This document shows, piece after piece, positions 11,063 through 54,970 of a stretch of DNA of 64,000 nt. The notes beneath the pieces are model-generated. The model searched no databases and was not told the origin of the DNA. It saw only the letters and a list, made by a program, of their open reading frames with translations. Positions within the stretch are counted from its first letter, which is position 1; every line of letters begins with the position of its first letter. The stretch is from an uncultured Acidobacteriota bacterium (GTDB taxonomy: Bacteria > Acidobacteriota > UBA6911). The stretch is from assembly GCA_963827655.1 (NCBI GenBank), contig CAWHCF010000020.1:96001-160000 (forward strand), in the 5' to 3' direction. A program made the position numbers and the translations under genes.

Positions 11063-11546
11063 CTAAACGGGCTGCGCTAATCCTTGCGCGGGGTATTTCC
11101 GTCGCCCGCTCCGGGGCGAAATGCCGCTGATCTTGCGTGGTGGGTTTAGTGCAGTTTTAAGCCCTTTGGCCTTCGTCAGCTTGAAATCTCCGTTCCGACC
11201 GGAACGGTTCCAGCTTCCGGTCATCGTGTCCTTGTCCACCTTTCCTTCCACAGTGTAGTGTCGGTTTTTCGCCTTGTAGTCAACTTCGAACTTCACCGTC
11301 ATGGTCTTGGGATCATACGAGGCTTTATCGAGAGCGATTCCTTCCGGGCCCGGATTCACGGTCCCGGTCAGAGTCTTTCCGTCCCACTTGAGCTCCAACG
11401 TGGCCGGGTTACGATCGCTTGCGCTGGGTCCCCAATCCCCCTTCCAGGTTCCGGTCAGGGGGTCGGATCCCTGGAAAGCCGAGGAGCGGAATGCCCAGAC
11501 TGATAACGAGTGCAACGCCGATAGTGAGAACCATTCTTCCCTTCAT
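11063..11546 (-). CDS. small secreted hypothetical protein; frameshift in the signal peptide (~11485)
   Basis: AGGAGG RBS then MKGRMVLTIGVALVISLGIPLL, continuing in another frame as AFQGSDPLTGTWKGDWGP...GDFKLTK. Confidence 0.6.
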
Positions 11547-16300: not shown

Positions 16301-19300
16301 TCCGCGCCGGCCATGATCGTCGTCGCGTCACTTGCGGTATTGTTGGCTGAATTGTTGTCGCCTCCTCCGGAGACCCCGGCAACATTGGTGACCGTCGCCG
16401 CAGCGTTGGATGCAACGGTCAACGTGATCGTAATCGGCGGATAACTCGCTCCTGCCGCCAGAACATCGCTTCTGCTACATCCGACTGCCAGGGCGCCGGC
16501 TGTGCAACTCCAGCCGTCGCCCACGGCGGACGTAGGGGTAAGTCCCAGGGGAAAAGTATCCGTCACCGTAACCGGGGCCGTCGTCGGCCCGACACCGGAG
16601 TTCCTTACCGTCACGGTGTAGGTCGCCCCCGTCTGTCCCTGGGTGAAGTTTCCGGTATGGCTCTTGGTGATGGTCAGGTCGGCCCCCGGGACAATGGCCG
16701 TGACATCGGTATCCGAATTGTTCGTCGGATTGACGTCTTCGCCGCCCGAAACCGATACTGCGTTGGTCACGGACCCGGGAGCACCGGGCTGAACGCTGAC
16801 CGTCAGGGTGATCGGGTAACTCTGTCCCGCCGCCAGAGGATCGCTCCGGGTGCAGGTCACAATCTGCCCCGAAATAGTACAAGGCAGCCAGCCGGCACCC
16901 GACGCGGATGTCGGCGTCAGTCCGGCCGGAACATTGTCGGTGACCGTCACGACCCCGGTGGTCGGCCCAGAGCCGGAGTTGGTTACCGTGATGGTGTAGA
17001 TTGCCCCGGTCTGTCCCTGGAGGAAGTTGCCCGTAGTGGCTCTTGCTGATGGTCAGGTCGGGGCCGGGCCCGATCGTGGTGATATCGCTGGCCGTGTTGT
17101 TGGCCGTATTGATCTCGCCCCCACTCCGGGGATCGTAGCCGTGTTCGTCACCGATGGCGGGGCTGCCGGCGCCACGTTCACCGTGAGGGTAATGGGCGGA
17201 TAACTGGCTCCCAGGATTGAGAGCGTCGCTGCGCGAGCAACTCATAGCCGGGGCCGTGATGTTGACATACCCAACCGGCGCCGGCTGCTGCCGTCGGCGT
17301 CAGGCCCGCCGGAAGGGGGTCATGGACCGTCCACAAAGCCGGTGGTCGGCCCGCCGCCTATGTTCGTCACGGTCAGGGTGTAGGTCGCTCCAACCTGCCC
17401 CTGCAGGAAGCTCCCCGTGTGCGTCTTGGTAAGGGTCAGGTCCGGCACCGCGATGATCGTGGTTGGATCGCTGGCCGAGTTATTGCTCGAATCCACATCG
17501 CCGCCTCCACCAACCGTCGCCGTGTTGGTCACCGATGCAGGGGCATTGACCGCGACCTGCACCGTGAGGGTAATCGTTGAGCTGGCCCCCGCAGCCAGCG
17601 GCGTCGCTGCGCGTACAAGTGACACTCTGGCCGCCCGCCGTGCACGTCCAGCCCGTGCCGGTGGCCGCAGTCGATGTCAGTCCGGCAGGAAGGCTGTCGG
17701 TCACAACGATCGGGCCACTGGTCGGGGCGCCCCCGGTGTTGCTCACGGTCAAGGTGTAGGTGCCGGTTTGACCTTGCGTGAAGTTACCCGTGTGACTCTT
17801 GGTGATGCTCAGGTTGGGGCCGGCAGTAATGGTGGTTGGATCTTGTGCCTGGTTGTTCGTTTGATTAACGTCCCCGCCACCGAAAACGCTGTGCCGTATT
17901 CGTCACCGACGCAGGAGCGTTGGGCTGAACGTTCACCGTAATGGTGATCACCGGGTAGCTCTGCCCGGTCAGCAGAGGGTCGCTGCGGGTGCAGCTCACG
18001 CCCTGGCCGGAGAGGAGGGCAGGTCCATCCTGTGCCGCTCACCGCCGTGGGAACCAGCCCGCAGGCAATGTGTCAATGACCGTAACCAAGCCGCTGGTCT
18101 CCGAGCCACCCCCGTTGCTCACCGTAATGGTATAGGTTCCCGGCTGTCCCTGGGTAAAGTTGCCCGTATGGCTTTTGGTGATCCTAAGGTCCGCGGCCGG
18201 CATAACCGTCGCCGTGTCGCTGGCGCTATTGTTGGCGGCATTGCCGTCCCCGCCGCCACTCACCGTCGCCATGTTCGTCACCGAGGCGGCGCATTGCCCG
18301 CGACGTTGCCGTCAACGTGATCGGCGGATAGCTCGCTCCCGGCAGCCAGAGGGTGCTCGTCTAGTACACGTGACCGTGTTCCCGAAATGCCGCAGCTCCA
18401 GCCTGGACCGCCGATGCCGGCATCACGGGTGACAGCCCGGTGGGCAAGTTGTCAATGACGTAACCGTGCCGCTGGTCGGGACCGCGCCGTTGTTCGTGAC
18501 CGTGATGGTGTACGTAGCGGTCTGGCCCTGCATGAAGTTGCCCGTATGGGTCTTCGTGATGGTCAAGTCAGGAGCGAGGGCAATGGGCGTCATCACCGTT
18601 GCGGTGTTATTGGCGGCGTTGAGGTCCCCGCCGCCTCCGACTGTGGCCACGTTCGTCACCGACGGCGGCGCATTGCTCGCCACGTTGACCGTCAACGTGA
18701 TCGGCGGATAACTCGCTCCCGGAGCCAGAGGGTCGCTGCGCGTACAGGTGACGGTGTTGCCCGAAATGCCGCAGCTCCAACCTGGACCGCTGACGGCCGC
18801 TGGGTGACAGCCCGGTGGGCAAGTTATCAGTGACCGTAACGGTGCCGCTGGTCGCGACTCCACCGGCGTTGGTCACGGTCAGCGTGTAGCCGGCGCCGCT
18901 CTGTCCCTGGGTGAAAGTGCCGTTGGCCGTCTTGGTGATGGCAGGGTCCGGGCCGCCAGATAATGGTCGTGGGATCGAGCGACTGTATTGTTGGCCGAAT
19001 TGCCGTCATTGCCGCCGGTAACGATACGCTGAATTGATTTCCAGCGGCAGAAGCGCTGGAGGCCACATTGACCGTGAGGGTGATCGGCGGGTAGCTGGCT
19101 GCTGGAGCCAGGGCGTCGCTGCGCGTGCAGGTAACCGAGTTGGTGGAGATGGTACACATCCAGCCTGTACCGGCGGCCGCCGTCGGGATCAGGTCGGGAG
19201 GAAAATTGTCCACGACCGTGACCGTGCCGGTCGTCGGCGCGGCACCGATATTGCGCGCGGTGATGGTGTAAGTCGCCCCGACCTGGCCCTGGGTAAAATT

Positions 19301-19996
19301 GCCCGAGTGAGTCTTCGTCAAGGTCAGGTCAGAGAATGGCTGAGTGCGATCGAAAAGAGGAACGAAGTTTACGACCGGATTCTCATCAGAGCCCCCCAAT
19401 TGGGCGTCGACAACAAGGTTGCCGGTAAGGGTGAATCCCGAAGCATAAGCATTTGGAATATTGCTGATCAGCGCCCAAAGCGTTCCCGCCTGCGGGGGCA
19501 CGACGTTCCCCAGGGTGTTGTGGGGGTCCGCCGGTAATCGTCAGAACCAGATCTGTAATTACGATTTGAGGATTGCCTGCCGGTGATTTTAGCTCAATTA
19601 ATAAATCGCTGAAGGATTGGTTGGCCTGAGTTTGAAGGTCATAGAACTGGTCCCGCGCTCGTCGATCCTGACGCGATCATCGTGATACGCGCCAGCGCAG
19701 GGGGGAGCGCAGGGGTGTAGGTCAGAGTGAAGTTGTTCAGGGCCGGAGGGGTGTTCCAGACCAGGTCGGCTACCTTCCGGTTGCCGGCAAAACTCAGGTT
19801 GCCCGAGCCGACGTAGATTTCGCTGCCCGATTCGGGAGACTCTGAAATTACGCAGCCGCGCTCCCCACTCTCGTTCGGTGATATCCGGGTCTTGCCGCGG
19901 ATCATGAGTGGTGAACGTGATGGTGGCGGTCTGAGCGAATAGATGGGTTTCGGTCCACAGACCTGCGACGGCGAGGAAAAGCAAAGCACGTTTCAT
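13301..19996 (-). CDS. giant secreted DUF11-repeat (Ig-like) surface protein/adhesin, 14 repeats, many frameshifts
   Basis: Signal peptide MKRALLFLAVAGLW; ~125-aa repeats DLTITKTHTGNFTQGQ.GATYTITV.N...GWTC...VTC.R.D.L..G.SYPPIT.TV.V...N.A.V.GGGD.N..NN.A.D at ~380-nt spacing. Confidence 0.8.
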
Positions 19997-27057: not shown

Positions 27058-28499
<1,442 letters not shown>

Positions 28500-28792: not shown

Positions 28793-30439
28793 CTAGAGCA
28801 AGGGTTTCAGCCGGCCATATCCGGACCGGCTCACCGGCAGCTTCGTCCCGTCGGCAAGGATGGCGACCCGGCTGTCCTTGGCGTACAGTTCAAGCCGCAC
28901 CATGCGCTCGACATTCAAGATATACGACCGGTGAATGCGGATAAAACGGTCGCTGTCGAGCAGCGCTTCCAGCTCGTTTAGCGTTTGCTGCTTGAGGTAA
29001 TCCTTGCCTCCGGCCTTGATACAGACGTAGTCATCCTGGGCTTCGACGTAGTCGATCTTTCCCACAGCAATGACGTGGACCCGGGAGCCATCCCTGACCA
29101 GGACCCGCTCTGATTTTCTTTCGGGAATGCGCGCGCTGGCCGCCAGGCCGGCCGCGGGCAGAGTCTCTCTGCGGCGGAACTTCTCGCGGGCATGGCCGAT
29201 GGCCTCCGCGAGCCGCTCCGGGCTGAAGGGCTTCAGCAGATAGTCCACGGCGTGGACCTCGAAGGCCTTCAGGGCATACTCGTCATAAGCGGTTATGAAG
29301 ATCACGGCCAGGTTTCGCTCGATCAGCTCAAGAACCTCGAAGCCGTTGAGTTTCGGCATCTGAATATCGAGGAACAGGATATCGGGCTTGAGCTCGGTAA
29401 CCGTCTTCACCGCCTCAAAGCCATTGGAGCATTCGGCCAGGATTTCGATTTCGGGGAAGGCGGAGAGATACTCTCTTAGAACTTCGCGAGCCGGTTGCTC
29501 ATCGTCTACGATCACGCAGCCGAGCTTTTCGCGTCCCGAGAAATCGGAGGGGCTCTCCGGGAATCGCCGGCGCGCTTCCAGGCTGAAGTCCGTTTCTTGC
29601 TTGAGTTGACGCAGATCGGCCAGCAGTTCACCGGCTGACTGGTAGCGCGCCCGGAGATTCTTCTCGAGCGTTTTCTTGATGATGGCTTCCAATTCTGCGG
29701 GCAGGTCCGGGTTGATGCCGGCAGGAGGAACCGAAGTCTTGTTCAGGATCGAGTCGAAGACGAGCGCGGGAGTATTCCCCGCAAAGGCTTGCTTGCCCGT
29801 GCTCATCTCGTAAAGCACCGACCCGAAGGAGAAAAGGTCGCTGCGGGCGTCGATCGGCTCTCCGCGAGCTTGTTCAGGAGACATGTAAGCCACGGTTCCC
29901 ATCAATGCATTCGTGCGCGTCAAAGGGGGATCCGATTCCAGGGTGGTATCGCGTCCTTCGGTCCCTTGCGCCGAAAACTTCGCCACGCCGAAGTCCAGCA
30001 CCTTGGCCTGTCCGCGCTCGGTCAGCAAGATATTGGCCGGCTTGACGTCCCGATGCACAATTCCCTTGGAATGCGCGGCGTCCAGGGCATCGACGATCTG
30101 AATCGACAGTTCGAGAATCTCTCCGATCTTAAGGGGCCTGCCGGCGCAGTGCTGGTTGAGCGTATCTCCTTCCAGAAACTCCATCACGATAAAGGGCTGT
30201 TTTTGATGCTCGGCCACATCGTAGATGGTGCAGATGTGAGGGTGATTCAGCGCCGAGGCGACACGCGCTTCCCGCTGGAAGCGTTCCAGAGCGCGGCGAT
30301 CTTTTGACAACTCTTCCGGCAGAAATTTCAGCGCCACGAGCCGATTGAGCCGCGTGTCCTGCGCTTTGTAGACCACGCCCATGCCGCCGGCTCCCAGCTC
30401 CTCGAGAATCCTGTAATGAGCTACGGTTTTGCCGGTCAT
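28793..30439 (-). CDS. Ser/Thr protein kinase - REC - LytTR fusion response regulator
   Basis: GAGGMGVVY, VALK, HRDVKPANI, DFG, GTVAYMSPE; then VIVDDE...LFLDIQMP...FITAYD...YLLKP; then RIHRSYILN...VSRS (LytTR); one continuous frame. Confidence 0.88.
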   Translation of the reverse strand: MTGKTVAHYRILEELGAGGMGVVYKAQDTRLNRLVALKFLPEELSKDRRALERFQREARVASALNHPHICTIYDVAEHQKQPFIVMEFLEGDTLNQHCAGRPLKIGEILELSIQIVDALDAAHSKGIVHRDVKPANILLTERGQAKVLDFGVAKFSAQGTEGRDTTLESDPPLTRTNALMGTVAYMSPEQARGEPIDARSDLFSFGSVLYEMSTGKQAFAGNTPALVFDSILNKTSVPPAGINPDLPAELEAIIKKTLEKNLRARYQSAGELLADLRQLKQETDFSLEARRRFPESPSDFSGREKLGCVIVDDEQPAREVLREYLSAFPEIEILAECSNGFEAVKTVTELKPDILFLDIQMPKLNGFEVLELIERNLAVIFITAYDEYALKAFEVHAVDYLLKPFSPERLAEAIGHAREKFRRRETLPAAGLAASARIPERKSERVLVRDGSRVHVIAVGKIDYVEAQDDYVCIKAGGKDYLKQQTLNELEALLDSDRFIRIHRSYILNVERMVRLELYAKDSRVAILADGTKLPVSRSGYGRLKPLL

Positions 30440-31569
30440 GGCCGTGAACGTCTGGTGGCAAGAGGCTCCCGGTCGCGACCGGTAGTGTTTTGCGGATCCA
30501 GTGGAGGCTTATTCTCGAAAACCGCGGGAAGCGTGAGTTCCACACGGAAGTGGCCATCCTTCTCCTGCACGTCCACGCGAGACTCCGATCCATGAAGCGT
30601 CGCCAGGCGGCTGCGCACATTCTGAAGGCCGAGTCCTTGTCGCGTTGCTTGTGGCCGCTCACGATCGCAGGGGTTATCGATCGCGATTCTGAGCCGATCT
30701 CCCCTTCTTTCGGTCTTGATGCGGATGGTTCCTCCCTCGATCAGCTGGGCGATACCGTGGTTGACGGCGTTTTCAACCAGGGGTTGAAGAAGAAGCGGAG
30801 GCACCAGGCAGTCCTTGCTGGCTTCGTCGATTTCCTGTTCTACTCTCAGGCGCGAGCCGAAACGAACCCGCTCGATGGAGAGAAAATTCGACGCCAGCGC
30901 AATCTCTTCGACCAGGGGAATATTCTGCTGCGCTCCCAGGCTGATGCTCTTGCGGAGGAAATCCGCCAGCAGCAGGCACATCCTTCGCGCGCCCGCACTA
31001 TCGGTGGCGATGAGAGAGCTGACGGAGTTGAGGCTATTGAAGAGGAAATGCGGATCGATCTGGGCTCTCAGCGCCTTGAGCTCAGCCTCGCGAGCCAGAA
31101 TCTCGTGCTCCAGCGCAAGCCGCTCCGATTCCCGGGCGACCTCAAAGCTTCCTATTACGTAGTTCACGGCGATCGCAAGATAGAAAAGGAGGATTCCCAC
31201 GCCGAGCAGCAGCGGGACTTCAGCGTTATAGCGCTCACTGAGCGTGGCAAACTTCGGGATGAACGAGAGCAGGGATACGTAGAGTTTACCCGTGAGGATC
31301 CACCAGGTGCTGGAGAGAAAAGCCGCGATCGTATGGACACTGAAGAGCCGGACAAAGCCTGTGCGCCGAAGCGGGAGCGCGCGGCACAAGTACCAGCTGG
31401 GAAGACAGATGAACGCATACTCGGATGCCAGCGGGAACGCAACGACGACGGACTCCGTCCAGGAGAGGCGTCCCGAGAGTGCCAGCAGAGTAGCGAGAAG
31501 GCAGGCTACGGGGAACCAGGCAGCGAGATAAATTCGAAGAATTCCTTTTTGCGTGGCAATGGGGTGCAT
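30436..31569 (-). CDS. LytS/YehU-family sensor histidine kinase
   Basis: N-terminal TM helices; ALRAQIDPHFLFNSLN; LLLQPLVENAVNHG; GLGLQNV; stop overlaps the kinase ATG. Confidence 0.92.
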   Translation of the reverse strand: MHPIATQKGILRIYLAAWFPVACLLATLLALSGRLSWTESVVVAFPLASEYAFICLPSWYLCRALPLRRTGFVRLFSVHTIAAFLSSTWWILTGKLYVSLLSFIPKFATLSERYNAEVPLLLGVGILLFYLAIAVNYVIGSFEVARESERLALEHEILAREAELKALRAQIDPHFLFNSLNSVSSLIATDSAGARRMCLLLADFLRKSISLGAQQNIPLVEEIALASNFLSIERVRFGSRLRVEQEIDEASKDCLVPPLLLQPLVENAVNHGIAQLIEGGTIRIKTERRGDRLRIAIDNPCDRERPQATRQGLGLQNVRSRLATLHGSESRVDVQEKDGHFRVELTLPAVFENKPPLDPQNTTGRDREPLATRRSRP

Positions 31570-31571
31570 GC

Positions 31572-32285
31572 TCAGTTCTTGGTTTCGACCCCGCCCATGA
31601 TGGCAAATCCTTTGACTACGAGCCGCTTCTTCGGTTCTCCCTGAGGCGGTCGCGTCGTATCCTCGAATCCGCCCATAAGAGGGAAGCCCTGGGAGACCAC
31701 AGTCCAGTCTTCGGGCACCTTGATCTCGATTCCTCCCCACCAGGCGAAGGTGTGAATGACAGCTTCCTCGCGCTGAATGTCGCACTCGCGCAAATCAATC
31801 TCGCATCCACCCATGATCGCGGTGAACTCTCCACTCCGGAAGTCTTTTGAATTGCAGCTTCGTACGACACCCCCCATTACGGCGATTGCGCTGATTGTGG
31901 AGTCTGGGTCGACGGGTATGTTGGGCTTGTCTGCGATCGCGATCTTTGAACTGCGAGCAAAAGCCTGCCATACCATGCTTCCGCCGATGGCGACCAGGAT
32001 CAGGGGCCAGTAGTCCCAGATTGAAAAACGAATGAGACGCAGATTGCTGAGCAGCCACAGAGTACCAACCAGCGAGAACACTATTCCGGCCGCGCGTCCC
32101 GGCGTGCTCGTCGACTGGATCAGCTTGGTCAGGCCCACCGCAATGATACCCGCGGGCCAGAGGCGAAAATATTCCTCGGCTTCCAGGACGTCAAGATTGT
32201 CCAGAGTGAAGAGAACTCCGAACACGATTGCCAGGAGACCGAGTACCAGCTGCGGCGTCACTCGGAAGGAAGGGCTATCTTCCAT
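31572..32285 (-). CDS. LiaF-like membrane protein (DUF5668 plus DUF2154-like C-terminus)
   Basis: Four TM segments with LWP/YWP motifs; AIMGG.EIDLR, GGIEIKVPEDW. Confidence 0.8.
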   Translation of the reverse strand: MEDSPSFRVTPQLVLGLLAIVFGVLFTLDNLDVLEAEEYFRLWPAGIIAVGLTKLIQSTSTPGRAAGIVFSLVGTLWLLSNLRLIRFSIWDYWPLILVAIGGSMVWQAFARSSKIAIADKPNIPVDPDSTISAIAVMGGVVRSCNSKDFRSGEFTAIMGGCEIDLRECDIQREEAVIHTFAWWGGIEIKVPEDWTVVSQGFPLMGGFEDTTRPPQGEPKKRLVVKGFAIMGGVETKN

Positions 32286-32673
32286 TTTGCTCCTCCGCGG
32301 GCGTGTTCGCCGGTGATTCAGGCCTGAGAGCACTCCAGACTATGGAGATTCCGATCGCCAGAATCAAGAGAGGCCAGGACTTGCTAAAACCAAGGCCGAA
32401 GAGTTTGAGATTCGAGATCAGCAACCATGCGCCGACCGTGCAGAGCCAGACCCCCTCGTCCGTGTTTTTCTTGTCTCCCGGTCGAACGAGTTTGTTGACA
32501 CCAACGCCGATCAATACCAGAGGCCAGTAGCGCCATACCCCTCTCAGCTCAAGCAGATCCAGATTGGCCAGAAACAAGGCGACCCCCGCCAGGACCAGCG
32601 TTGCGCCCGTAACCAGCTGGGCGATCGTGCGGGGAGAAGAATCAGTGTTCGTTTTACTCTCCGGGTCTGTCAT
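32275..32673 (-). CDS. LiaI/LiaF-like TM protein (DUF5668)
   Basis: GATLVLAGVALFLANL, WRYWPLVLIGVG, SWPLLILAIG; AAGGAGG RBS. Confidence 0.75.
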   Translation of the reverse strand: MTDPESKTNTDSSPRTIAQLVTGATLVLAGVALFLANLDLLELRGVWRYWPLVLIGVGVNKLVRPGDKKNTDEGVWLCTVGAWLLISNLKLFGLGFSKSWPLLILAIGISIVWSALRPESPANTPAEEQNGR

Positions 32674-32829: not shown

Positions 32830-33711
32830 TTGCGTGATTCAACTAAAAAAGAGACGCGAGGATGCCAGGAAACGGCCCTGGCAAGTTACAGCTTGCCCTT
32901 CATCACGCTTACGCACTCTCCTCTCGTCCAAGGACCGGTTCCGGTCAAGATCTACTATCGAGAATCGGGTCATGGCGTGCCGCTGGTTTTTCTGCACGGC
33001 GGCTGGGGCTATGAAATCTATCCTTTCAATCGGCAGATCCAGGCATTTGGCGATCGATTCAGCATTTTGATCCCCGATCGCTCGGGTTACGGCCGCTCCA
33101 CTAAACTGGAAGAATTGCCCTCGGATTTCCACGCGCGTGCTGCCGTGGAAACGATGCGGTTTCTGGAGGCTCTCGACCTTCGGCGCCCTGTCCTGTGGGG
33201 GCACAGCGATGGGGCGGTCATCGCGGCGCATATCGGACTCGCCGCGCCCGAGCGGATTCGAGCGCTGGTACTCGAGGCCTTCCACTTTTATCGAGTCAAG
33301 CCCGGCTCGCGCGAATTTTTCCAGACCATGGCTTCAGACCCGGAACGGATGGGAAGGCGAGTATGCGAAACCCTGGCCTCGGAGCATGGCGAGCGTTACT
33401 GGCAGCAATTGATGCGAAACGGCGGCCAGGCATGGTTGAACATTGCCTGCGAAAGCGTGCAGGCCAATCAGGATCTATATGGAGGCAGGCTTTCGGAACT
33501 GCGGGTTCCTGCGCTCTTCATCCATGGGGGAGATGATCCACGCACGGAACCCGGCGAATTAGCGGCCGTGCGAGAAGCGCTCCCTTCGGCCACGGTTCAC
33601 GTTCTTCAAGGCGCGGGCCACAGTCCGCATAGCGAGAGCTCCGCGGCTGGCGAGTGTAATGCCAGGGCGGGTGAGTTCTTTGAGAATCTTGGAATCTGGA
33701 GCAGGACTTAG
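32830..33711 (+). CDS. alpha/beta fold hydrolase
   Basis: LVFLHGGWG, DRSGYGRS, WGHSDG, GAGHSPH; exact start uncertain. Confidence 0.85.
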   Translation: MRDSTKKETRGCQETALASYSLPFITLTHSPLVQGPVPVKIYYRESGHGVPLVFLHGGWGYEIYPFNRQIQAFGDRFSILIPDRSGYGRSTKLEELPSDFHARAAVETMRFLEALDLRRPVLWGHSDGAVIAAHIGLAAPERIRALVLEAFHFYRVKPGSREFFQTMASDPERMGRRVCETLASEHGERYWQQLMRNGGQAWLNIACESVQANQDLYGGRLSELRVPALFIHGGDDPRTEPGELAAVREALPSATVHVLQGAGHSPHSESSAAGECNARAGEFFENLGIWSRT

Positions 33712-33877
33712 CATTCAGTGTTGGCGAAGCTTGCTTCGCCAAATAAGGCGGTAGCAAGCTCCGAAACCTCACCGCAAGTAGGGCGGCGCCTTGCGCCCGG
33801 GTCGCACTGGAGGTTTGTTAGGACCATTCGGTCAAGTGGAGAGCTCGCGGGCAAGCTGATTGTCCCTGATCTGATCA

Positions 33878-33903
33878 GGGAGGCCCGGATTTCCGGACCT
33901 CCC
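33878..33903 (-). terminator. terminator-like hairpin after the Cys-rich peptide gene
   Basis: GGGAGGTCCGG-AAAT-CCGGGCCTCCC on the minus strand, 11 nt after the stop; no poly-U tail. Confidence 0.5.
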
Positions 33904-33914
33904 CGTGTCCTTCC

Positions 33915-34031
33915 TTACAGGCAACAACCCAAGCCGCAGCAGGAACTTCCGCAGCAGGATTGGGCGCTGACAAAGGCGCTGGCCGCAAAGAAGGTCAGAA
34001 CCAGAGCTAGGCCTAAGAAAGCTCTTCTCAT
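33915..34031 (-). CDS. 38-aa secreted Cys-rich peptide (absent from the ORF track)
   Basis: AAGGAG RBS; MRRAFLGLALVLTFFAASAFVSA|QSCCGSSCCGLGCCL*; classic signal peptide; downstream hairpin. Confidence 0.75.
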   Translation of the reverse strand: MRRAFLGLALVLTFFAASAFVSAQSCCGSSCCGLGCCL

Positions 34032-34032
34032 G

Positions 34033-34112
34033 GCACTCTCCTTAAGAAAGAAATTGGATTTTGAAAAAGAGACAGCTGGGCGCGTCCGTTTCTTTCTAAA
34101 TCCGGAGAACGC
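34033..34112 (-). promoter_or_regulatory. SD-sequestering mRNA hairpin joining the leader 3' end to the peptide RBS
   Basis: 5' arm GCGTTCTCC-GGA-TTT-AGAAAGAAA pairs with 3' arm TTTCTTTCT-TAA-GGAGAGTGC. Confidence 0.6.
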
Positions 34113-34443
34113 GGTTTTTGATGAAGAGGGGAACCTCGATTACTCGAAGTGAAGGCGATTCGAACCAGGTCGCGGACGCGGTCAGGCAGACTCCGCTTAC
34201 TAAGTCCGAGAGCGCTGGCTGAAAAACTTTCAGAGACCGCTCGCCGGCAATGAAACTGCTATCCACACAGCTGGAACAGGAGGGGCTTTCGTCGTGCGGT
34301 CCGCAGCAGTCTCGCTGTTCGTCCGTGCACTGTTTGGCGTCAGCCGTCCGAGCCGTCTGCGGCAATACTTCTGGACAAGCGAGCGCGCATGTAACAGCGA
34401 GGAAAAAGAGAATCATGTAAGAGAGCAAGAAAAACCGTCTCAT
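34096..34443 (-). CDS. Cys-rich secreted leader-type protein (DUF2946/HYC_CC_PP-like)
   Basis: Signal peptide, C...CC...CSSC, C-terminus PLFIKNRVLRI*; TATAAT 5 nt upstream of ATG. Confidence 0.65.
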   Translation of the reverse strand: MRRFFLLSYMILFFLAVTCALACPEVLPQTARTADAKQCTDEQRDCCGPHDESPSCSSCVDSSFIAGERSLKVFQPALSDLVSGVCLTASATWFESPSLRVIEVPLFIKNRVLRI

Positions 34444-34448
34444 AACTC

Positions 34449-34478
34449 ATTATAACGATCAAGTGTCCGCATGGTTCC
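34449..34478 (-). promoter_or_regulatory. promoter for a leaderless transcript
   Basis: Minus strand GGAAC-N17-GTTATAAT-GAGTT-ATG: perfect -10 hexamer, no SD, ECF-like -35. Confidence 0.5.
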
Positions 34479-34685
34479 CCCATTTTGCGCGCACCGGGTA
34501 ATTCGGGGCAATCATTTTCTGCTGCGGGACGAGTCGGCGCCTGATCGTCGACACGCGCAAGTTCCCTGCCAAGCGACCCGGGCCATGCCAGGCCGTTTCT
34601 CTATTTGAATTGGGGCGAACGGGAGAACGAAGGGATGAACCAGTCCTGCACTGCGATGAAGAATCTGCTCACCGATGGCGCATAT

Positions 34686-34782
34686 GTCATTGGTCATCAG
34701 TCATTGGTCATTTTTCATTGATGAACCGGTATTGCGCAAAGGATCCAGAAATGACAAATGACCAATGACCAATGACCGATGG
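34686..34782. repeat. heptamer (TCATTGG / CCAATGA) inverted arrays
   Basis: GTCATTGGTCATCAGTCATTGGTCAT ... ATGACAAATGACCAATGACCAATGAC. Confidence 0.75.
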
Positions 34783-35241
34783 TCAAGAGGGTTTGAAGCG
34801 CAGGACCAGGGCGACGCCCGCGGCGGCCAGCACCAGCCCCACATAGAACCAGATCTCAGGAGCTGACTTCGGCCGATGCCAGGCCATGCTGACGAAGGTG
34901 CTGACGATCGGAGCTCCGGCAAAGACCAGCGGAGGAACATAATTGGGCGTTCCGCCGAACTTCAGCGCGAGAATGATACAGAGCGCGCCCGCCGCCCCCA
35001 GCGTTCCACCGGCTATGGCGAAAACGGTCCCCCGGGTGTTGAATTCCATCGGCTCCATTCTAGCGGCCAGCAAAGCCAGCGGGACCAGGACCGCGGTCAG
35101 GAAATAGGCGATTCCGACGCAGAGGAAGGCGCGAATCGATCCCTTGTTCAGCGAATTCTGTCCTTCGTGCAGCACGGGGACATATGCTCCCCAGGACAGC
35201 ACGGCTCCGACGACAAAGACCAGCCACAAGTCCGACTTCAT
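34783..35241 (-). CDS. small DMT/EamA-like membrane protein
   Basis: Five TM segments; SWGAYVP.LH.G; GG.P.YVPPLVFAGAPIV. Confidence 0.65.
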   Translation of the reverse strand: MKSDLWLVFVVGAVLSWGAYVPVLHEGQNSLNKGSIRAFLCVGIAYFLTAVLVPLALLAARMEPMEFNTRGTVFAIAGGTLGAAGALCIILALKFGGTPNYVPPLVFAGAPIVSTFVSMAWHRPKSAPEIWFYVGLVLAAAGVALVLRFKPS

Positions 35242-35331
35242 GAGTTTTCTCCTTCAGCAAGGTTTTTCGAACCTCGTTCCGCCCTGGTGGTGAGTGCGTG
35301 AAAATTAAATCCACTCGCCGAGGCTCGAGGT

Positions 35332-37475
35332 CTACTGCACTTCGTACAGGTCGATGGATTTCCCCTGGAGGTACTTGTCGAACCAGTTCAGAATGTGCTG
35401 CAGTCTCTCGACCCGGTGCCACGGCTTTCCGGATCGTGAGAGTTCATGCGTCTCGTCCGGAAAGCGCACGAGGGCCGTTGGTTTTCTAAGATACTTGAGT
35501 GCGCGAAACATCACCTCGCCCCCTTCAGAGGGAGGCGTACGATAGTCGGTTTCCCCCTCGATAAACATGAGCGGCGTCGTCACCTTTGAGACGTGAGTGA
35601 TGGGCGACCGCGCCGCGAAATCTGCCGCATCCTGCCAGGGGGCGCCCCTGAACCAGGTTGGCGTGAAGAGCGTAAAATCGGCGGTGTACCAGAAACCGGC
35701 CCAGTCGGCGATCGAGCGTTGCGCTACCGCCGCTCGAAACCGGCTGGTCTGGGTGACGACCCAGTTGGTCAGCAGCCCGCCTCCACTGCCTCCCGTAACG
35801 CCCAGGCGCTCCGGATCGACATAACCTCGCTTGAGCACATCATCGACTCCGGCCATCAAGTCTTTAAAATCATCGCCCGGATAGCGGTATTGGATGATGT
35901 TTCCAAAGTCCTGCCCGTACGCCGAACTGCCGCGCGGATTTGTGTAGAGCACGACATATCCCTTGGCGGCCATCCAGTGAAACTCGTGGGTGAACGTGTG
36001 GCCGTAGGCCGCGTGAGGTCCTCCGTGAATCTCCAGGATCATGGGATATTTCTTGGCAGGGTTGAAATCCGGCGGCTTCTGAATCCACCCATGAATTTTC
36101 TTTCCATCGAAGCTGGTATACCAGATCTCCTCGGGTGCGCTCAGCTCCAGCTCGGAGAACAGGGAGTCGTTGAAGCGGGTGACCTGGGTCATTCTTCCCG
36201 TGGTGCCGTCCAGGAGGAAAAGATCGCCAATGCTGGTTGCGCTGGAAACCAGGACCGCCAGCTTGGAAGCGTTGGAACTCGCAGCGTAGGATACGATCTC
36301 ATGATCGCCCGTGGTAAAAGGATCGACCTTGCCCGAGATCGCATCGATACGGATAAGGTTAGCCCGGCCTTGCTCCGCGACAACTACGATCAACGTCGCC
36401 CATCTTTGTCCCAAATAACTCCACCGGACTGGTTGGCTCGCGGCGGATGCTGGTCGGCAGTCAGGCCGGAGCCGACATCGAAGTCGTACGTTGCAGTAAG
36501 ATTCCTCGGCGTTGCTCCTGCAATCGCATCTGCGACGAACAAATCGGGCTGGCTGTACGAGCGTGCCGGACGCCCGTTCGCAGTCCCCCGGAACGCAATG
36601 AGCTTCCCATCGGGGCTGAACGAGAAGTCGCCGATAGTGCCGTCGATGCTCAAGACCTTTTTCATCTCGCCGCCGCCCGATGGGATGGCGTAAATGTCAG
36701 TATCCGGCGGTTCGTAGTAAGACTCCTTCACTCGATTGGACGTGAAATAGATGTCTTTACCGTCCGGCGACCATGTGGGATTCGTCTCGTCGAAAGAGCC
36801 TGAAGTGAGTTGCTTCGGTTCGCCGCCTCCCGGAACCGCGACCCTCCAGATGTGCCTGCGGCGCTTCGGATCCAGATATCCGGCGTCGTTGAACCTGTAT
36901 ACGGCCTGAGTGATCACGCGGACGTCGCTCTGGCGTTCGGCGGAGGCTTCGCTCGCTGGGGCTTTTTTCTGGGCCAGGTCTTCCGCTGACGCGGAGCTGG
37001 TAAAGGCAATCGACTTTCCGTCGGGAGACCACCGATGAGATCCTGCGCCTCTCGGTATCTCGGTTAGAGATTGTGCCTCGCCGCCGCTGGCCGGTATCAA
37101 GTAGAGCTGCGCCGGCTGGATCTTCCCTTCCTTTTCGACCGCGCGAAGAAAGGCGATCTGTTTCCCGTCGGGAGACCAGCGCGGCGAAAGGTCATGGGGT
37201 CCGGCCGTGAACTGGCGTGCCTCACCTCCCTCAACCGGGACGGTCCACAATGCAGTCTCGTAGCGGTCTCGCTTCGGGTTGACCGATACCCGTACGAAGG
37301 CAATGCGGGAGCCGTCCGGAGAGAGCTGCGGGTCCGCAATCCACACAAAGCGGAACAAATCCTTTTCGGTTATCGAACGCTTTGCGCCGCTGAAGGCGCG
37401 CGGCTCGAATATTCCGCCAGTCGAGGCAATTGCCGCAATGATCCAGAATAAAGTGCCATACCGTATGCGATTCAT
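35332..37475 (-). CDS. S9 family peptidase (acylaminoacyl/dipeptidyl), frameshift ~36395
   Basis: WSPDG repeats; EIHGGPH; GVTGGSGGG catalytic Ser; ETDYR; ETHELSRSG. Confidence 0.9.
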
Positions 37476-37624
37476 CCGGCGCTCCTTGGTTTTGACATAT
37501 ACTATCAACGACCAGGACGCGGCGACACATAGTTTTGGGTCTAACCGCCAGGACGCGAAGACGCAAAGAGTACTTCTTCGCGTCTTTGTGTCTTGGGCGG
37601 TGGTGTTACACGAAGGATTACAAA

Positions 37625-38612
37625 ATGAATTTGCGCGATCTTGTAATTGTCGGGGGAGGACCGGCGGGCCTGGCCGCAGCTATTGCTGCGCAAAAAGCGG
37701 GACTGGACTACCAGGTGCTTGAAAAAGGAGTACTGGTGAATTCGATCTTTCATTTTCCCAGGGACATGGTTTTTTTCACCACGCCGGAGTTGCTGGAAAT
37801 CGGTGCCCTCCCGTTCACCACCCCTTACCAGAAGCCCACGCGCGCCGAGGCTTTGCGCTACTACCGGCGCGTCACCGACGCTTACCAGTTGCGCGTCTCT
37901 CTGGGCGAGCAGGTGATCACCATCGAACGCCAGGAATAAGGACGTATTCGCTATCGAGACGCGTTCCAGCAATGGGAGCCGGGGGGTTCACTACGCGCGC
38001 ACCGTCGTGATGGCAATCGGATACTACGATCATCCCAACCGGCTCGAAATCCCGGGGGAAGACTTGCCTCATGTGCGCCACTACTACAGCGAGCCGCATC
38101 CCTTCTATCGGAAGCAAGTCGTGATTGTCGGAGGCAAGAATTCGGCGGCGGAAGCCGCCCTGGAGCTGTTTCGTGCCGGCGCCCAGGTTACACTGGTGCA
38201 CCGCGGCAGCCAGCTGGGAGAGTCGATCAAGTATTGGGTTCGCCCTGATATCGAGAACCGTATCAAGGAAGGATCAATCCGGGGCCGTTTCGGTACCAGA
38301 GTCCGCGAGATCCGTCCCGAGTGCGTCATCGTTGAATCCAACGGGAACCGCGATGAGCTGCCGGCGCAGGGGGTCTTTCTGCTGACGGGTTACCACCCCG
38401 ATGGCGAACTGCTGAGGCGGGCCGGCGTCGAAGTGAATGAGGAGACGTTTGTGCCCACGCACAATCCTGAGACGCTGGAAACAAACGTTCCCGGTTTGTA
38501 CCTGGCAGGCGCGGTCGTGACGGGAAAGGAAACCAATCGAGTTTTCATAGAAAATGGCCGGTTTCACGGTGATTCCGTCGTTGCAGTCATACGCGCGCGG
38601 TTGGGTCGATAG
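37625..38612 (+). CDS. ypdA: YpdA-family putative bacillithiol disulfide reductase, frameshift ~37940
   Basis: IVGGGPAGL, LVNSI..FP..M.FFTTPELLEIG, KPTR.EAL.YYR, IVGGKNSA, IKYWVRPDIENRI, FIENGRFHG. Confidence 0.85.
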
Positions 38613-53588: not shown

Positions 53589-54970
53589 ATGACCGAATTG
53601 AATGTAGCGGAATTGTTGCAACAAGATCGACAGCACCTGCTTCACCCACTCCATCATCCTGACGACCACGCCAAGCCCTTGGTCCTGGTCAAAGGCGAAG
53701 GCGCTGTGATTTGGGATGCACAGGGGGGAGAATACCTGGATGGATTGGCCGGCCTCTGGAACACCAACGTGGGGCATGGGCGCAGAGAACTGGCGGAAGC
53801 CGCCGCCGACCAGATGAGCAGGCTCGCCTTTTCATCGGGTTACACTCGGCTCTGCCAATATTCCCGCCATTCAGTTGAGCGCGCGGCTCAGCCAGCTGTC
53901 ATACCCGAGTCTGAATTCAGTCTTCTTCACCAGCGGCGGGGCCGAATCGAACGAGAGCGCATTCAAGACGGCGCGCTTCTACTGGAAGGCCAAAGGCAAA
54001 CCGGAAAAGGTCAAGATAATTTCTCGCTGGCATGCCTACCATGGCGTCACCATGGCGGCGATGAGCGCGACCGGGATTCAGCCCTTCTGGAAAATGTTTG
54101 AGCCGCGCGTGCCGGGCTTCGTGCACGTCCAATCTCCGTATCCCTACAGGTTCGAGGGCGCAAAACCAGGCGAAACCATCGGCGCCGCCGCGGCGCGAGC
54201 GTTGGAGGAAGCCATCATCGAGCAGAATCCGGACACGGTAGCCGCCTTCATAGCCGAACCCGTACAGGGGGCCGGAGGCGTCATCGTTCCACCCGACGAT
54301 TATTTTCCTCGCGTGCGAGAGATCTGTTCCAGATACAAGATCCTCTTTATCGCCGACGAGGTGATCACCGGATTCGGCCGCACGGGGCAATGGTTTGCCA
54401 TGGGCCGATGGGACGTCGAACCCGATATCATGTCTTTCGCCAAGGGGGTGACGAGTGGATATCATGCCGCTCGGCGGGATCATGGTATCGGATGAGATTG
54501 CGGGAACGATCAGGAGTGTCGCTCCGGAAAATCGCTGGATGCATGCGTTCACTTATTCCGGGCATCCGGCGTGCTGTGCGGTAGCGCTCAAGAATCTCGA
54601 GATCATCGAACGCGAGGGACTGGTGGAGCGAGCCGCGAAAATGGGCCGCCGCCTGCTCGACGAGCTCGGCAAACTGAAGAATCTGGATATCGTCGGTGAT
54701 GTCCGTGGACTGGGATTGATGGCCGGCGTCGAACTGGTTGCCGATCGCGCGACCAAAGCTCCCTTCGACCCCAAGCTGAGGGTGGGGGAATCGGTGCGAC
54801 GGGTCATGCAGGAACAGGGCGTATTCACGCGGGTACGGAACGACGTGATTCTGCTGGCCCCGCCCCTGGTGATTCGAGAGGACCAGATAGATCGAATGGC
54901 CGGCGTCGTCCGGTCTTCTATTCAGACCGTGCAGGAACGGGTGGGACAGACGGCTGGTCAACGAGGCTGA
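53589..54970 (+). CDS. class III aminotransferase, frameshifts ~53850 and ~54460
   Basis: YLDG.AGLW..NVGHG, SGGAESNE, YHG.T, FIAEPVQG, ADEVITGFGRTG, FAKG (PLP Lys). Confidence 0.9.

What the first reader, a model, noticed from the sequence alone, without database searches (positions are those of the whole stretch)
33915..34031. Unannotated 38-aa secreted hexa-cysteine peptide (mature QSCCGSSCCGLGCCL)
Seen: AAGGAG RBS, a 23-aa signal peptide ending V-S-A, and a 15-residue mature part with three CC pairs, followed by a GC-rich hairpin. It is below the ORF-track cutoff and is overlapped on the opposite strand by a spurious 144-aa ORF. Inference: it could be a periplasmic mini-metallothionein or metal chelator, a disulfide-knotted peptide, or a RiPP precursor modified in trans. 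No modifying enzymes are adjacent.
Basis: partly seen in the sequence, partly recalled or inferred. Interest (0 to 1): 0.8.

Follow-up and report, generated by a model that had tools for sequence, protein, structure and literature searches.

The report
Orphan secreted six-cysteine mini-peptide gene
A 38-codon reading frame in a soil Acidobacteriota genome has a strong ribosome-binding site and an export signal and would release a 15-residue peptide with six cysteines, but no relative was found anywhere, so it is a plausible yet unproven lineage-specific small gene.

Summary
The ORF is real as sequence: window 33915-34031, minus strand, 38 aa, MRRAFLGLALVLTFFAASAFVSAQSCCGSSCCGLGCCL. It has AAGGAG 6 nt before the ATG and a 13-bp GC hairpin 9 nt after the stop.

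Gene-like signals are good. Of 8 AAGGAG-N5-7-ATG sites in the window, the other 7 open ORFs of 132-799 aa. The N-terminus passes a crude signal-peptide rule met by 40 of 2671 ORF starts. It is the only place in six frames with 6 Cys in 15 residues.

Conservation evidence is nil. There were no Pfam, NCBIfam, PADLOC or PHROGs hits. phmmer found 0 hits among 1.84 billion representatives. The word search gave no candidates. The GTDB genome scan confirmed 0 of 600 pattern matches. Nothing similar turned up in 32 Acidobacteriota loci, plasmids or phages. Codon statistics are neutral to unfavourable.

The Cys tail is a 15-nt tandem repeat, (xCCGx)3. No RiPP enzyme was seen among 75 window ORFs scanned.

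New: the gene 64 nt upstream on the same strand (34096-34443, 115 aa) is a conserved, unnamed, Cys-rich exported protein with 5 homologues.

Most likely it is a translated, Sec-exported orphan thiol peptide, with metal chelation slightly favoured over a disulfide knot. A chance ORF remains a serious rival. Interest is moderate to low until homologues or expression are shown.

The parts
33915..34031 (-). 38-codon ORF plus TAA stop, the candidate pre-peptide
34038..34043 (-). Shine-Dalgarno AAGGAG, 6 nt before the ATG
   Evidence: Of 8 AAGGAG-N5-7-ATG sites in the window, the other 7 start ORFs of 132-799 aa.
33963..34031 (-). Codons 1-23: Sec-type signal-peptide-like segment (MRR, hydrophobic core, V-S-A). 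An alternative cut after A19 is possible.
   Evidence: Read from the sequence. It passes a crude rule met by 40 of 2671 ORF starts. No SignalP was available. No Tat-signal model hit.
33918..33962 (-). Codons 24-38: QSCCGSSCCGLGCCL, three x-C-C-G-x pentads encoded by a 15-nt tandem repeat
   Evidence: D7 (identical 11-mers at 33934-33944 and 33949-33959). It is the only six-frame locus with 6 Cys in 15 residues.
33876..33905 (-). 13-bp GC-rich hairpin with a 4-nt loop, 9 nt after the stop. No U-tail. It could serve either strand.
   Evidence: Not called as a terminator.
34044..34095 (-). AT-rich spacer between the upstream gene and the SD. It holds a weak AU-rich stem-loop followed by a U-rich run, which may be a partial terminator of the upstream gene.
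   Evidence: z = -1.44, not significant; I9
34096..34443 (-). Upstream same-strand gene: conserved 115-aa protein with an N-terminal hydrophobic segment. It has 4 Cys invariant in all 6 sequences (7 Cys in the 3 closest). Family unnamed.
33718..34152 (+). Opposite-strand 144-aa ORF, judged spurious
   Evidence: No family hit. It overlaps the conserved 3' end of 34096-34443. Codon score is uninformative. Not searched for homologues.

Best explanation
This is a genuine but lineage-restricted (orphan) small gene. It lies just downstream of, and perhaps is co-transcribed with, a conserved gene for a Cys-rich exported protein.

Proposed mechanism, step by step:
1. Ribosomes start at the AAGGAG-N6-ATG site.
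2. The 38-aa product is taken to the Sec translocon by its MRR + hydrophobic + V-S-A signal.
3. Signal peptidase I cuts after Ala23 (less likely after Ala19).
4. A neutral peptide of 15 (or 19) residues, made of three x-C-C-G-x pentads, is released into the periplasm or medium.
5. Its function rests on the six thiols. I favour chelation of a soft metal in a small thiolate cluster, with Cu(I) most likely, over a purely structural set of three disulfides.

Shown here: the ORF, the SD, the hydrophobic N-terminus, the repeat structure, the hairpin, and the conserved Cys-rich neighbour.
Inferred: translation, export, the cleavage site, the metal chemistry, and any link to the neighbour.
For: - SD and start: all 7 other AAGGAG-N5-7-ATG sites in the window open long ORFs. 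Six of these carry Pfam hits above the gathering score and one a sub-threshold EamA hit.
- Rarity: only 7 of 2671 ORF starts combine an SD of 5 nt or more with a signal-peptide-like N-terminus. Four of those 7 lie at or inside long ORFs that are likely real: 37475, 43734 and 9646 fall in Pfam-positive ORFs and 63489 opens an unscanned 170-aa ORF. Another (58468) is internal to the MacB gene.
- Location: the ORF sits in the 1070-nt gap between the hydrolase stop (33711) and the EamA-like gene (34783). It overlaps no supported gene.
- A strong hairpin begins 9 nt after its stop.
- The first codons are AT-rich and use rare codons, as is common at real starts (general knowledge).
- The upstream neighbour is a conserved exported Cys-rich protein, so two thiol-rich exported products are encoded in tandem.
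- The mature part is only Cys, Gly, Ser, Leu and Gln, with no charged or aromatic residue that might suggest receptor recognition. That composition resembles small copper metallothioneins (recalled, not tested).
Against: - No homologue anywhere: 0 hits at E <= 1e-3 among 1.84 billion representatives. No candidate shared three 5-mers among 5.8 billion clusters. 0 of 600 pattern matches were confirmed in 185,579 species genomes. No tblastn hit better than E = 0.47 and no similar small ORF in 32 Acidobacteriota loci, 397,732 nt. Nothing in plasmids or phages. Best Atlas score was 0.83, a level that shuffled proteins reach a third of the time.
- Codon log-odds is -0.276. Only 1% of in-frame 38-codon windows of real genes score that low, while 38.6% of off-frame windows score as high.
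- The synonymous-only score is -0.032, between coding (0.098 +/- 0.105) and off-frame (-0.096 +/- 0.127).
- The Cys tail is a simple 15-nt tandem duplication, which can arise in non-coding DNA.
- No promoter or canonical terminator was found.
- No metal-homeostasis gene appeared among the 75 ORFs scanned.
- Free thiols are disfavoured in an oxidising periplasm (general knowledge).
- The assembly carries several split genes, so local sequence errors are possible.
Confidence: 0.4

Rival explanations
1. Not a gene. It is a chance open frame in the 3' untranslated or intergenic DNA behind the conserved 115-aa gene. Its Cys-rich tail was created by a 15-nt tandem duplication, and its SD and hydrophobic stretch are coincidences.
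For: - No homologue in any search.
- The codon score looks off-frame and the synonymous score is undecided.
- The tail is a DNA tandem repeat.
- No promoter was found.
- My rough estimate is that about one AAGGAG-N5-7-ATG site per window arises by chance.
- The first stage scanned many windows, and the criteria are post hoc.
Against: - The SD, the ATG, at least 30 open codons and a signal-peptide-like N-terminus each occur rarely. Multiplying the and one search counts (2-3 unexplained AAGGAG starts x 1.5%) gives an estimated 0.03-0.05 such ORFs per window.
- The hairpin sits directly after this frame's stop.
- The real neighbour ORF115 scores just as poorly on codon usage (-0.053 and -0.047), so that statistic has little weight here.
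Confidence: 0.3
2. A real exported peptide whose six Cys form three disulfides through DsbA-type oxidation. This would give a compact knotted 15-mer that acts as a signal or an antimicrobial. In biogenesis it would resemble heat-stable-enterotoxin-type peptides.
For: - The same gene-likeness evidence as the best explanation.
- Six Cys in 15 residues behind a Sec signal is the arrangement of known bacterial disulfide-rich mini-peptides (recalled).
- Oxidation is the default fate of exported Cys pairs (general knowledge).
Against: - No Pfam hit to any toxin or bacteriocin family at E <= 1.
- No pro-region.
- The mature part has no charged or aromatic side chains for target recognition (sequence).
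- No immunity, transporter or receptor gene is evident nearby.
- The LytTR two-component genes at 28793-32673 are separated from it by a convergent hydrolase gene.
Confidence: 0.15
3. An uncleaved single-pass small membrane protein. Residues 4-23 would be the transmembrane helix and the Cys-rich tail would face the periplasm, where it modulates a membrane partner such as the upstream 115-aa protein or a sensor kinase.
For: - The uncharged stretch is 20 residues long, enough for a membrane helix (sequence).
- Many bacterial proteins under 50 aa are single-pass membrane proteins (general knowledge).
- The upstream protein also has an N-terminal hydrophobic helix (model helix 2-22) with an invariant CALACPE motif at its end.
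Against: - Two good A-x-A cleavage sites follow the hydrophobic core (sequence).
- No homology to any known small membrane regulator.
- No complex prediction was run.
Confidence: 0.08
4. A RiPP precursor whose Cys residues are modified by enzymes encoded elsewhere in the genome, for example MNIO-type thiooxazole formation as in bufferins, or radical-SAM thioether formation.
For: - Bufferin precursors combine a Sec signal peptide with conserved Cys, and MNIO clusters occur in Acidobacteriota (PMC11626156, passages read).
- A Cys-rich short core is typical of several RiPP classes (recalled).
Against: - No DUF692/MNIO, DUF2063, radical-SAM, YcaO or lanthipeptide-synthetase domain appeared among the 75 window ORFs scanned.
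- RiPP precursors are nearly always clustered with their enzymes (general knowledge).
- The peptide has no recognisable leader apart from the signal peptide.
- No DUF2282 hit.
- The bufferin core is 61-68 residues and folded, against 15 residues here.
Confidence: 0.05
5. The opposite-strand 144-aa ORF (33718-34152, +) is the real gene and the 38-aa frame is its antisense shadow.
For: - It is the longest ORF over this DNA.
- Its codon score (0.024) is slightly higher than the peptide's.
Against: - No Pfam, PADLOC or PHROGs hit.
- It starts inside the hydrolase's terminator palindrome at 33721-33742 (I11).
- It overlaps 57 nt of the conserved C-terminal coding region of ORF115.
- It is R/K/P/Q-rich, as antisense frames often are.
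- Its synonymous codon score is -0.107, in the off-frame range.
Confidence: 0.02

Closest known systems
Bufferins (BufA1 / DUF2282 and BufA2 / BUF_6/12Cys), periplasmic copper-binding RiPPs made by MNIO enzymes (PMC11626156, passages read)
   Same: [quoted passage not shown] A role in copper buffering in the envelope. The system is reported in Acidobacteriota.
   Different: - Bufferin cores are 61-68 residues and predicted to fold, with 4 or 6/12 spaced Cys. Here the core is 15 residues with three vicinal CC pairs.
- Bufferins sit in operons with an MNIO (DUF692) and a DUF2063 partner. None was seen among the 75 window ORFs scanned.
- No DUF2282 hit.
Heat-stable-enterotoxin-type peptides of enterobacteria (family and Cys pattern recalled; nothing fetched)
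   Same: A bacterial, Sec-exported precursor that yields a mature peptide under 20 residues, with six Cys packed into about 13-15 residues including two CC pairs. The Cys are oxidised in the periplasm.
   Different: - Those precursors carry a pro-region and are about twice as long.
- Their mature part has a conserved receptor-binding motif.
- The peptide here gave no Pfam hit at E <= 1.
- It has a regular (xCCGx)3 repeat.
- It comes from a soil Acidobacteriota lineage with no animal host context.
Small copper metallothioneins and copper storage proteins (MymT-type bacterial, small fungal Cu-MTs, Csp1); all recalled
   Same: A very small, Cys/Gly/Ser-rich sequence. Six thiols would suffice for a tetracopper-thiolate type cluster. 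Csp1 shows that thiolate-based Cu(I) storage can exist outside the cytoplasm.
   Different: - Known bacterial metallothioneins are cytoplasmic and lack signal peptides.
- Csp1 is a Tat-exported four-helix bundle.
- No sequence similarity was detected to any family.
- No metal-resistance genes lie nearby.

Membership tests
Bufferin / MNIO-modified RiPP precursors | Predicted Sec signal peptide on the precursor | tested here: met
   MRR + hydrophobic core + V-S-A. It passes the crude rule. No SignalP was available. The criterion is taken from PMC11626156.
Bufferin / MNIO-modified RiPP precursors | DUF2282 or BUF_6/12Cys core of about 60-70 residues | tested here: not met
   No Pfam hit at E <= 1. 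The core is 15 residues. No BUF_6/12Cys profile was available to test directly.
Bufferin / MNIO-modified RiPP precursors | Adjacent MNIO (DUF692) and DUF2063 genes | tested here: not met
   Neither domain appeared among the 75 window ORFs scanned. The rest of the genome was not available.
Heat-stable enterotoxin family (Pfam model, name recalled) | Match to the family profile, and a pre-pro-mature architecture | tested here: not met
   No Pfam family at E <= 1. There is no pro-region between the signal peptide and the Cys part (sequence).
Bacterial metallothionein (SmtA/BmtA type, Pfam model recalled) | Match to the family profile. Cys plus His zinc-cluster ligands. Cytoplasmic location. | tested here: not met
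   No Pfam or NCBIfam hit. No His in the sequence. It carries an export signal.
SCIFF / ranthipeptide precursors (NCBIfam model recalled) | Match to the six-Cys precursor model and an adjacent radical-SAM maturase | tested here: not met
   No NCBIfam hit at E <= 1. No radical-SAM domain among the 75 window ORFs scanned.
Twin-arginine (Tat) signal peptides | An S/T-R-R-x-F-L-K motif with an extended n-region and a mildly hydrophobic h-region. Match to Tat-signal profiles. | tested here: inconclusive
   R-R-A-F-L is present at residues 2-6, and R-R-F-F-L in the upstream protein (sequence). But only Met precedes it, the h-region is strongly hydrophobic, and no Tat-signal model in Pfam or NCBIfam hit at E <= 1.
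Bacterial lipoproteins | Lipobox [LVI][ASTVI][GAS]C at the end of the signal peptide (pattern recalled) | tested here: not met
   The first Cys is preceded by A-Q-S, and Q at position -2 does not fit (sequence).
Amino-acid attenuation leader peptides | A run of regulatory codons followed by terminator/antiterminator structures and a downstream biosynthetic operon on the same strand | tested here: not met
   The next gene downstream is the convergent hydrolase on the other strand. There is no same-strand gene to regulate.

The most novel reading that the evidence does not exclude
The ORF encodes the smallest known extracytoplasmic metallothionein. It would be an unmodified 15-residue (xCCGx)3 peptide, exported by Sec, or metal-loaded via Tat given its R-R-x-F-L start. 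It would assemble a polynuclear Cu(I)- or Cd/Zn-thiolate cluster in the envelope. It would work together with the conserved Cys-rich 115-aa protein encoded just upstream, forming a two-gene thiol-based metal-buffering module that has no enzyme-installed modification.
Probability: 0.12. Interest if true: 0.7.

Novelty: new variant of a known kind. Interest (0 to 1): 0.35.

Why it matters
If translated, this would be a ribosomal, apparently unmodified, exported hexa-thiol 15-mer with no relatives.

- It would be an example of how a tandem 15-nt duplication behind a signal peptide can create a new secreted peptide.
- It would be a minimal natural scaffold for soft-metal binding or disulfide knotting in a poorly studied soil phylum.
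- It would also show what standard gene callers and family libraries miss below 40 codons.

If it is not translated, the case is a useful caution: a strong SD plus a hydrophobic stretch plus a striking repeat can look like a gene.

The more solid by-product is the conserved, unnamed Cys-rich exported protein family next door. It has an invariant CALACPE motif and deserves its own look.

Tried and rejected
**Searches on the peptide**
- Family libraries: NCBIfam, Pfam, PADLOC and PHROGs all gave 0 families at E <= 1.
I repeated it with a 41-aa window reference that adds 3 upstream in-frame codons, and got no candidate.
- phmmer against 1.84 billion representatives: 0 hits at E <= 1e-3.
- Power check: Cys-preserving copies are detectable in 20 of 20 cases at 70-90% identity, 17 of 20 at 60% and 0 of 20 at 50%. 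This used --max, so the real filtered search is somewhat weaker.
Run with a 48-aa reference that includes 10 upstream codons, 600 pattern matches gave none confirmed.
- Second scan with the adjacent hydrolase: 32 loci, all Acidobacteriota-like MAGs, best identity 65%.
  - Small ORFs with at least 2 CC pairs in the tail: only 2 in the loci (L015, L028), neither with a signal peptide.
  - tblastn of the peptide gave a best E of 0.47.
  - The degenerate DNA pattern for two CCG units matched 0 of 32 loci.
  - ORF115 and the EamA-like gene gave no tblastn hit below my cut-offs in these loci, so synteny around the peptide is not conserved and this test has little power.
- ESM Atlas: best score 0.83, unnamed clusters.
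- Plasmids and phages by tblastn: none.

**Other checks**
- Rfam over 33000-35500: only sub-threshold miRNA-family matches, all on the palindromic repeat at 34681-34780. Nothing on the ORF.
- Peptide versus ORF115 by BLASTP: no alignment, so they are not paralogues.
- ORF115 structure model: mean pLDDT 44.6. It was too poor to use, so no fold search was run.
- ORF115 against plasmids: none.
- Codon-usage tests were uninformative or unfavourable.
- Complex prediction: no job was sent, because I do not claim binding.

**Literature**
- No paper contains the 8-residue core string.
- Two keyword searches gave nothing relevant in their listings.
- The bufferin search gave the comparator paper, which I read in passages only. 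Its supplements were not opened.

**Left unchecked**
The contigs encoding the ORF115 homologues (P0002-P0006) could not be inspected for a downstream peptide.
- The 144-aa antisense ORF was not searched for homologues.
- Attenuation leader, lipoprotein and Tat readings were considered and set aside (see Membership tests).
Full report
**1. What is there**

On the minus strand at 33915-34031 lies an ATG-started ORF of 38 codons ending in TAA. It translates to MRRAFLGLALVLTFFAASAFVSAQSCCGSSCCGLGCCL.

- AAGGAG lies at 34038-34043, 6 nt before the ATG.
- The in-frame sequence upstream is open for 20 more codons but holds no start codon.
- Nine nucleotides after the stop, a 13-bp GC-rich hairpin with a 4-nt loop (33876-33905) dominates the fold of the 81-nt stretch. 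MFE is -34.7 kcal/mol, z = -2.57, and 3 of 200 shuffles fold as well.
- The hairpin has no U-tail. The consensus scan found 0 terminators and 0 sigma-70-like promoters in 33600-34900.
- The Cys-rich part is a DNA tandem repeat of period 15. Identical 11-mers sit at 33934-33944 and 33949-33959 (D7), so the mature part reads as three pentads: SCCGS, SCCGL, GCCL.
- The finding's coordinates and description are correct. It omitted only the strand.

**2. Is it more than chance?**

For:
- AAGGAG occurs 39 times on both strands. Fifteen sites have a start codon 4-10 nt downstream. Eight of those are ATG at 5-7 nt.
- Seven of the eight open ORFs of 132-799 aa, starting at 1227, 32673, 35241, 37475, 38702, 47065 and 56470.
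- Six of the seven carry Pfam domains above the gathering score: dioxygenase, LiaF-TM, PD40/DPPIV_N, reprolysin-like, 3-keto-disaccharide hydrolase, MacB/FtsX. One has a sub-threshold EamA hit. The eighth is this ORF.
- A crude n-h-c signal-peptide rule is met by 40 of 2671 ORF starts of 30 aa or more.
- Of the same 2671 starts, 57 have an SD of 5 nt or more, and 7 have both features.
- Five or more Cys in a 15-residue window occurs at 4 loci in six frames. Only this locus reaches 6.
- The ORF lies in the gap between the hydrolase gene (stop at 33711) and the EamA-like gene (34783-35241).

Against:
- The codon log-odds against genes of this window is -0.276. In-frame 38-codon windows average 0.279 +/- 0.18, and only 1% score as low. 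Off-frame windows average -0.383 +/- 0.341, and 38.6% score as high.
- Much of this comes from the amino-acid composition. The signal-peptide half scores 0.027 and the Cys tail -0.752.
- With amino-acid composition removed, the score is -0.032, between coding (0.098 +/- 0.105) and off-frame (-0.096 +/- 0.127).
- The neighbour ORF115, which is real by homology, scores no better (-0.053 and -0.047). The statistic therefore has little discriminating power here.
- All criteria were chosen after the ORF was seen.

**3. Relatives**

None was found.

- Pfam, NCBIfam, PADLOC and PHROGs: 0 families at E <= 1.
- phmmer against 1,835,955,588 representatives: 0 hits at E <= 1e-3.
- Word-indexed search of 5.8 billion clusters, with a 41-aa reference: no candidate sharing three 5-mers among proteins of 22-72 aa.
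- Scan of 185,579 species genomes, with a 48-aa reference: 600 pattern matches, 0 confirmed.
- Plasmids and phages: no tblastn match at E <= 10.
- ESM Atlas: best score 0.83, a level that shuffled sequences reach a third of the time.

Power of the phmmer search: a local check shows that, at this database size, it would report Cys-preserving relatives in 20 of 20 cases at 70-90% identity, 17 of 20 at 60% and 0 of 20 at 50% (run with filters off, so this is an upper bound).

The source organism's own proteins are apparently not in the databases. Neither the peptide nor ORF115 found itself. The nearest relatives of neighbouring genes are 55-65% identical. Gene callers also often skip 38-codon ORFs. 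Absence is therefore real but only moderately informative.

**4. Synteny**

- The adjacent alpha/beta-hydrolase (32830-33711, +) retrieved 32 loci. All are Acidobacteriota-type MAGs, although two record titles say Clostridia. Blastocatellia are the closest, at up to 65% identity. The window is therefore most likely from Blastocatellia or a close class of Acidobacteriota.
- In these 397,732 nt there is no small ORF with a signal peptide and at least two CC pairs. The 2 ORFs with two CC pairs, in L015 and L028, lack a signal peptide.
- There is no tblastn hit of the peptide better than E = 0.47, and 0 of 32 loci match the two-CCG DNA pattern.
- These loci also gave no tblastn hit below my cut-offs for ORF115 or the EamA-like gene. 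The neighbourhood is not conserved, so the test says little.

**5. Context**

- The immediate upstream gene on the same strand, 34096-34443 (115 aa), is real. Two full-length homologues have 57% and 55% identity (E = 2.5e-31 and 3.4e-28). Three more distant ones were found with the profile (E = 3e-4 to 7e-4).
- The six-sequence alignment shows an N-terminal hydrophobic segment ending in an invariant V-x-C-A-L-A-C-P-E. C39 and C59-V-D-x-x-F are also invariant.
- The three closest sequences share a C-terminus, V-P-[LI]-F-I-[KR]-N-R-V-L-R-I, that runs to the stop.
- The family has no Pfam, NCBIfam, PADLOC or PHROGs match.
- Its Atlas look-alikes score 0.96 and are unnamed clusters of 109-118 aa from Acidobacteriota and Nitrospirota.
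- The AlphaFold model is poor, with mean pLDDT 44.6.
- Because the C-terminus is conserved to the stop, the peptide is not a frameshifted extension of this gene. It is also in a different frame.
- The 64-nt spacer contains a weak AU-rich stem-loop followed by a U-rich run (z = -1.44; I9). Whether the two genes are co-transcribed is open.
- Two thiol-rich exported products encoded in tandem is the only contextual hint of function.

Further out, and not obviously linked:
- EamA-like half-transporter (34783-35241).
- A split S9 peptidase (35332-37508).
- The convergent hydrolase.
- A LiaF-like / LytS-type kinase / Ser-Thr-kinase-receiver-LytTR cluster (28793-32673).

Scan coverage: of 159 ORFs of 110 aa or more, I scanned the likelier member of overlapping pairs, plus the ORFs near the finding. 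In total 75 window ORFs went through Pfam. None carries an MNIO/DUF692, DUF2063, radical-SAM, YcaO or lanthipeptide-synthetase domain, or a recognisable metal-resistance domain. A gene in an unscanned ORF, or elsewhere in the genome, cannot be excluded.

**6. The opposite-strand ORF**

- The 144-aa ORF (33718-34152, +) has no family hit.
- It starts inside the hydrolase's terminator palindrome (33721-33742, I11).
- It overlaps 57 nt of ORF115's conserved 3' end.
- Its synonymous codon score is in the off-frame range, -0.107.
- I agree that it is spurious, but I did not run a homologue search on it.

**7. How it most likely works**

Shown: the ORF, the SD, the hydrophobic N-terminus with two A-x-A sites, the (xCCGx)3 tail, the hairpin, and the Cys-rich conserved neighbour.

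Inferred, in order:
1. Translation.
2. Sec targeting.
3. Cleavage after A23 by signal peptidase I, giving a neutral 15-mer whose N-terminal Gln may cyclise. Cleavage after A19 would give a 19-mer.
4. A function carried by the six thiols.

Between the two chemistries I slightly favour soft-metal thiolate binding. The reasons are the Cys/Gly/Ser composition, the lack of any recognition side chains, and the thiol-rich neighbour. The alternative is a three-disulfide knot, which is the default fate of exported Cys. Both remain untested.

My split of belief:
- Real exported thiol peptide, metal chelation favoured: 0.40.
- Chance ORF: 0.30.
- Disulfide-knotted signal or antimicrobial: 0.15.
- Uncleaved small membrane protein: 0.08.
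- RiPP made in trans: 0.05.
- Antisense ORF is the real gene: 0.02.

**8. Comparison with known systems**

- Bufferins share the Sec signal plus Cys and the copper role. They differ in core size (61-68 folded residues), in family signature, and in the obligatory adjacent MNIO and DUF2063 genes (PMC11626156, passages read). Those features were tested here and not met, so this is not a bufferin.
- Heat-stable-enterotoxin-type peptides are the nearest analogue in biogenesis: Sec export and six Cys within about 13-15 residues (recalled). There is no profile match and no pro-region.
- Small copper metallothioneins resemble it in composition (recalled), but they are cytoplasmic and unrelated in sequence.
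- The R-R-A-F-L start resembles a Tat motif. However, no Tat profile hit, and the n- and h-regions look Sec-like.
- Lipoprotein and attenuation-leader readings fail on sequence and on gene order.

**9. Novelty and verdict**

- No paper in the searched library contains the core string.
- Two keyword searches listed nothing relevant.
- If real, this is a new, family-less variant of the known kind 'small Sec-exported Cys-rich peptide'.
- With no conservation, no expression data and no informative context, it stays a plausible orphan. Interest is 0.35.
- The most decisive missing step is to look downstream of the ORF115 homologues in their own contigs.

Noticed in passing
window 34096-34443 (-): A conserved, unnamed 115-aa protein family. 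It has an N-terminal hydrophobic segment ending in an invariant V-x-CALACPE, further invariant C39 and C59-V-D-x-x-F, and a conserved C-terminus in the three closest members. It has 5 homologues (2 at 55-57% identity), no Pfam or NCBIfam match, and Atlas look-alikes at 0.96 in Acidobacteriota and Nitrospirota.
   Followed up: partly
window 34681-34786: A roughly 100-nt palindromic element built from heptamer repeats (AATGACC / GTCATTG), with 33-nt arms that are 85% complementary. It lies between the EamA-like gene and ORF115. It gives spurious sub-threshold Rfam miRNA hits. The 14-mer appears 7 times here and once, with 2 mismatches, at 264-277.
   Followed up: partly
window 27201-28431; 35332-37508; 37535-38612; 53589-54495; 14128-19501: Several genes appear split into adjacent or overlapping ORFs that match successive parts of one Pfam model: DUF1501, PD40+S9 peptidase, Pyr_redox_3 and class-III aminotransferase. 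The DUF11 region is read less securely as several separate ORFs. This suggests frameshifts from indel errors or pseudogenes, and it bears on trust in any small ORF of this assembly.
   Followed up: no
window 28793-32673 (-): A cluster of two LiaF-like membrane proteins, a LytS-type histidine kinase (PF06580) and an unusual fusion of Ser/Thr protein kinase + receiver + LytTR DNA-binding domain (548 aa).
   Followed up: no
window 11409-11546 (-): A second small ORF (45 aa) with an AGGAGG SD and a signal-peptide-like start. It overlaps the 5' part of the 150-aa ORF at 11063-11515 in another frame. It may be that gene's N-terminus displaced by a frameshift.
   Followed up: no
window 34300-34309 versus 33948-33957: The 10-mer TCCGCAGCAG (+ strand), which encodes part of the CCG unit of the peptide, recurs inside ORF115, where it encodes the D-C-C-G stretch (D2). 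It may be chance. The closest ORF115 homologues have CCQQ there.
   Followed up: no
window 33708-33854 (-): The frame of the peptide stays open after its single TAA for 69 more codons, up to the hydrolase gene. It runs through the hairpins. It is most likely a coincidence, but a substitution error at the stop cannot be excluded in this assembly.
   Followed up: no
L016, L019-L022, L024-L026, L028, L030 versus window 35332-37508: In more distant Acidobacteriota loci, a PD40+S9 peptidase (about 33-38% identical) sits directly upstream of, and divergent from, the hydrolase homologue. In the window the S9 peptidase lies downstream and convergent. This is either a rearrangement or a different paralogue.
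   Followed up: no
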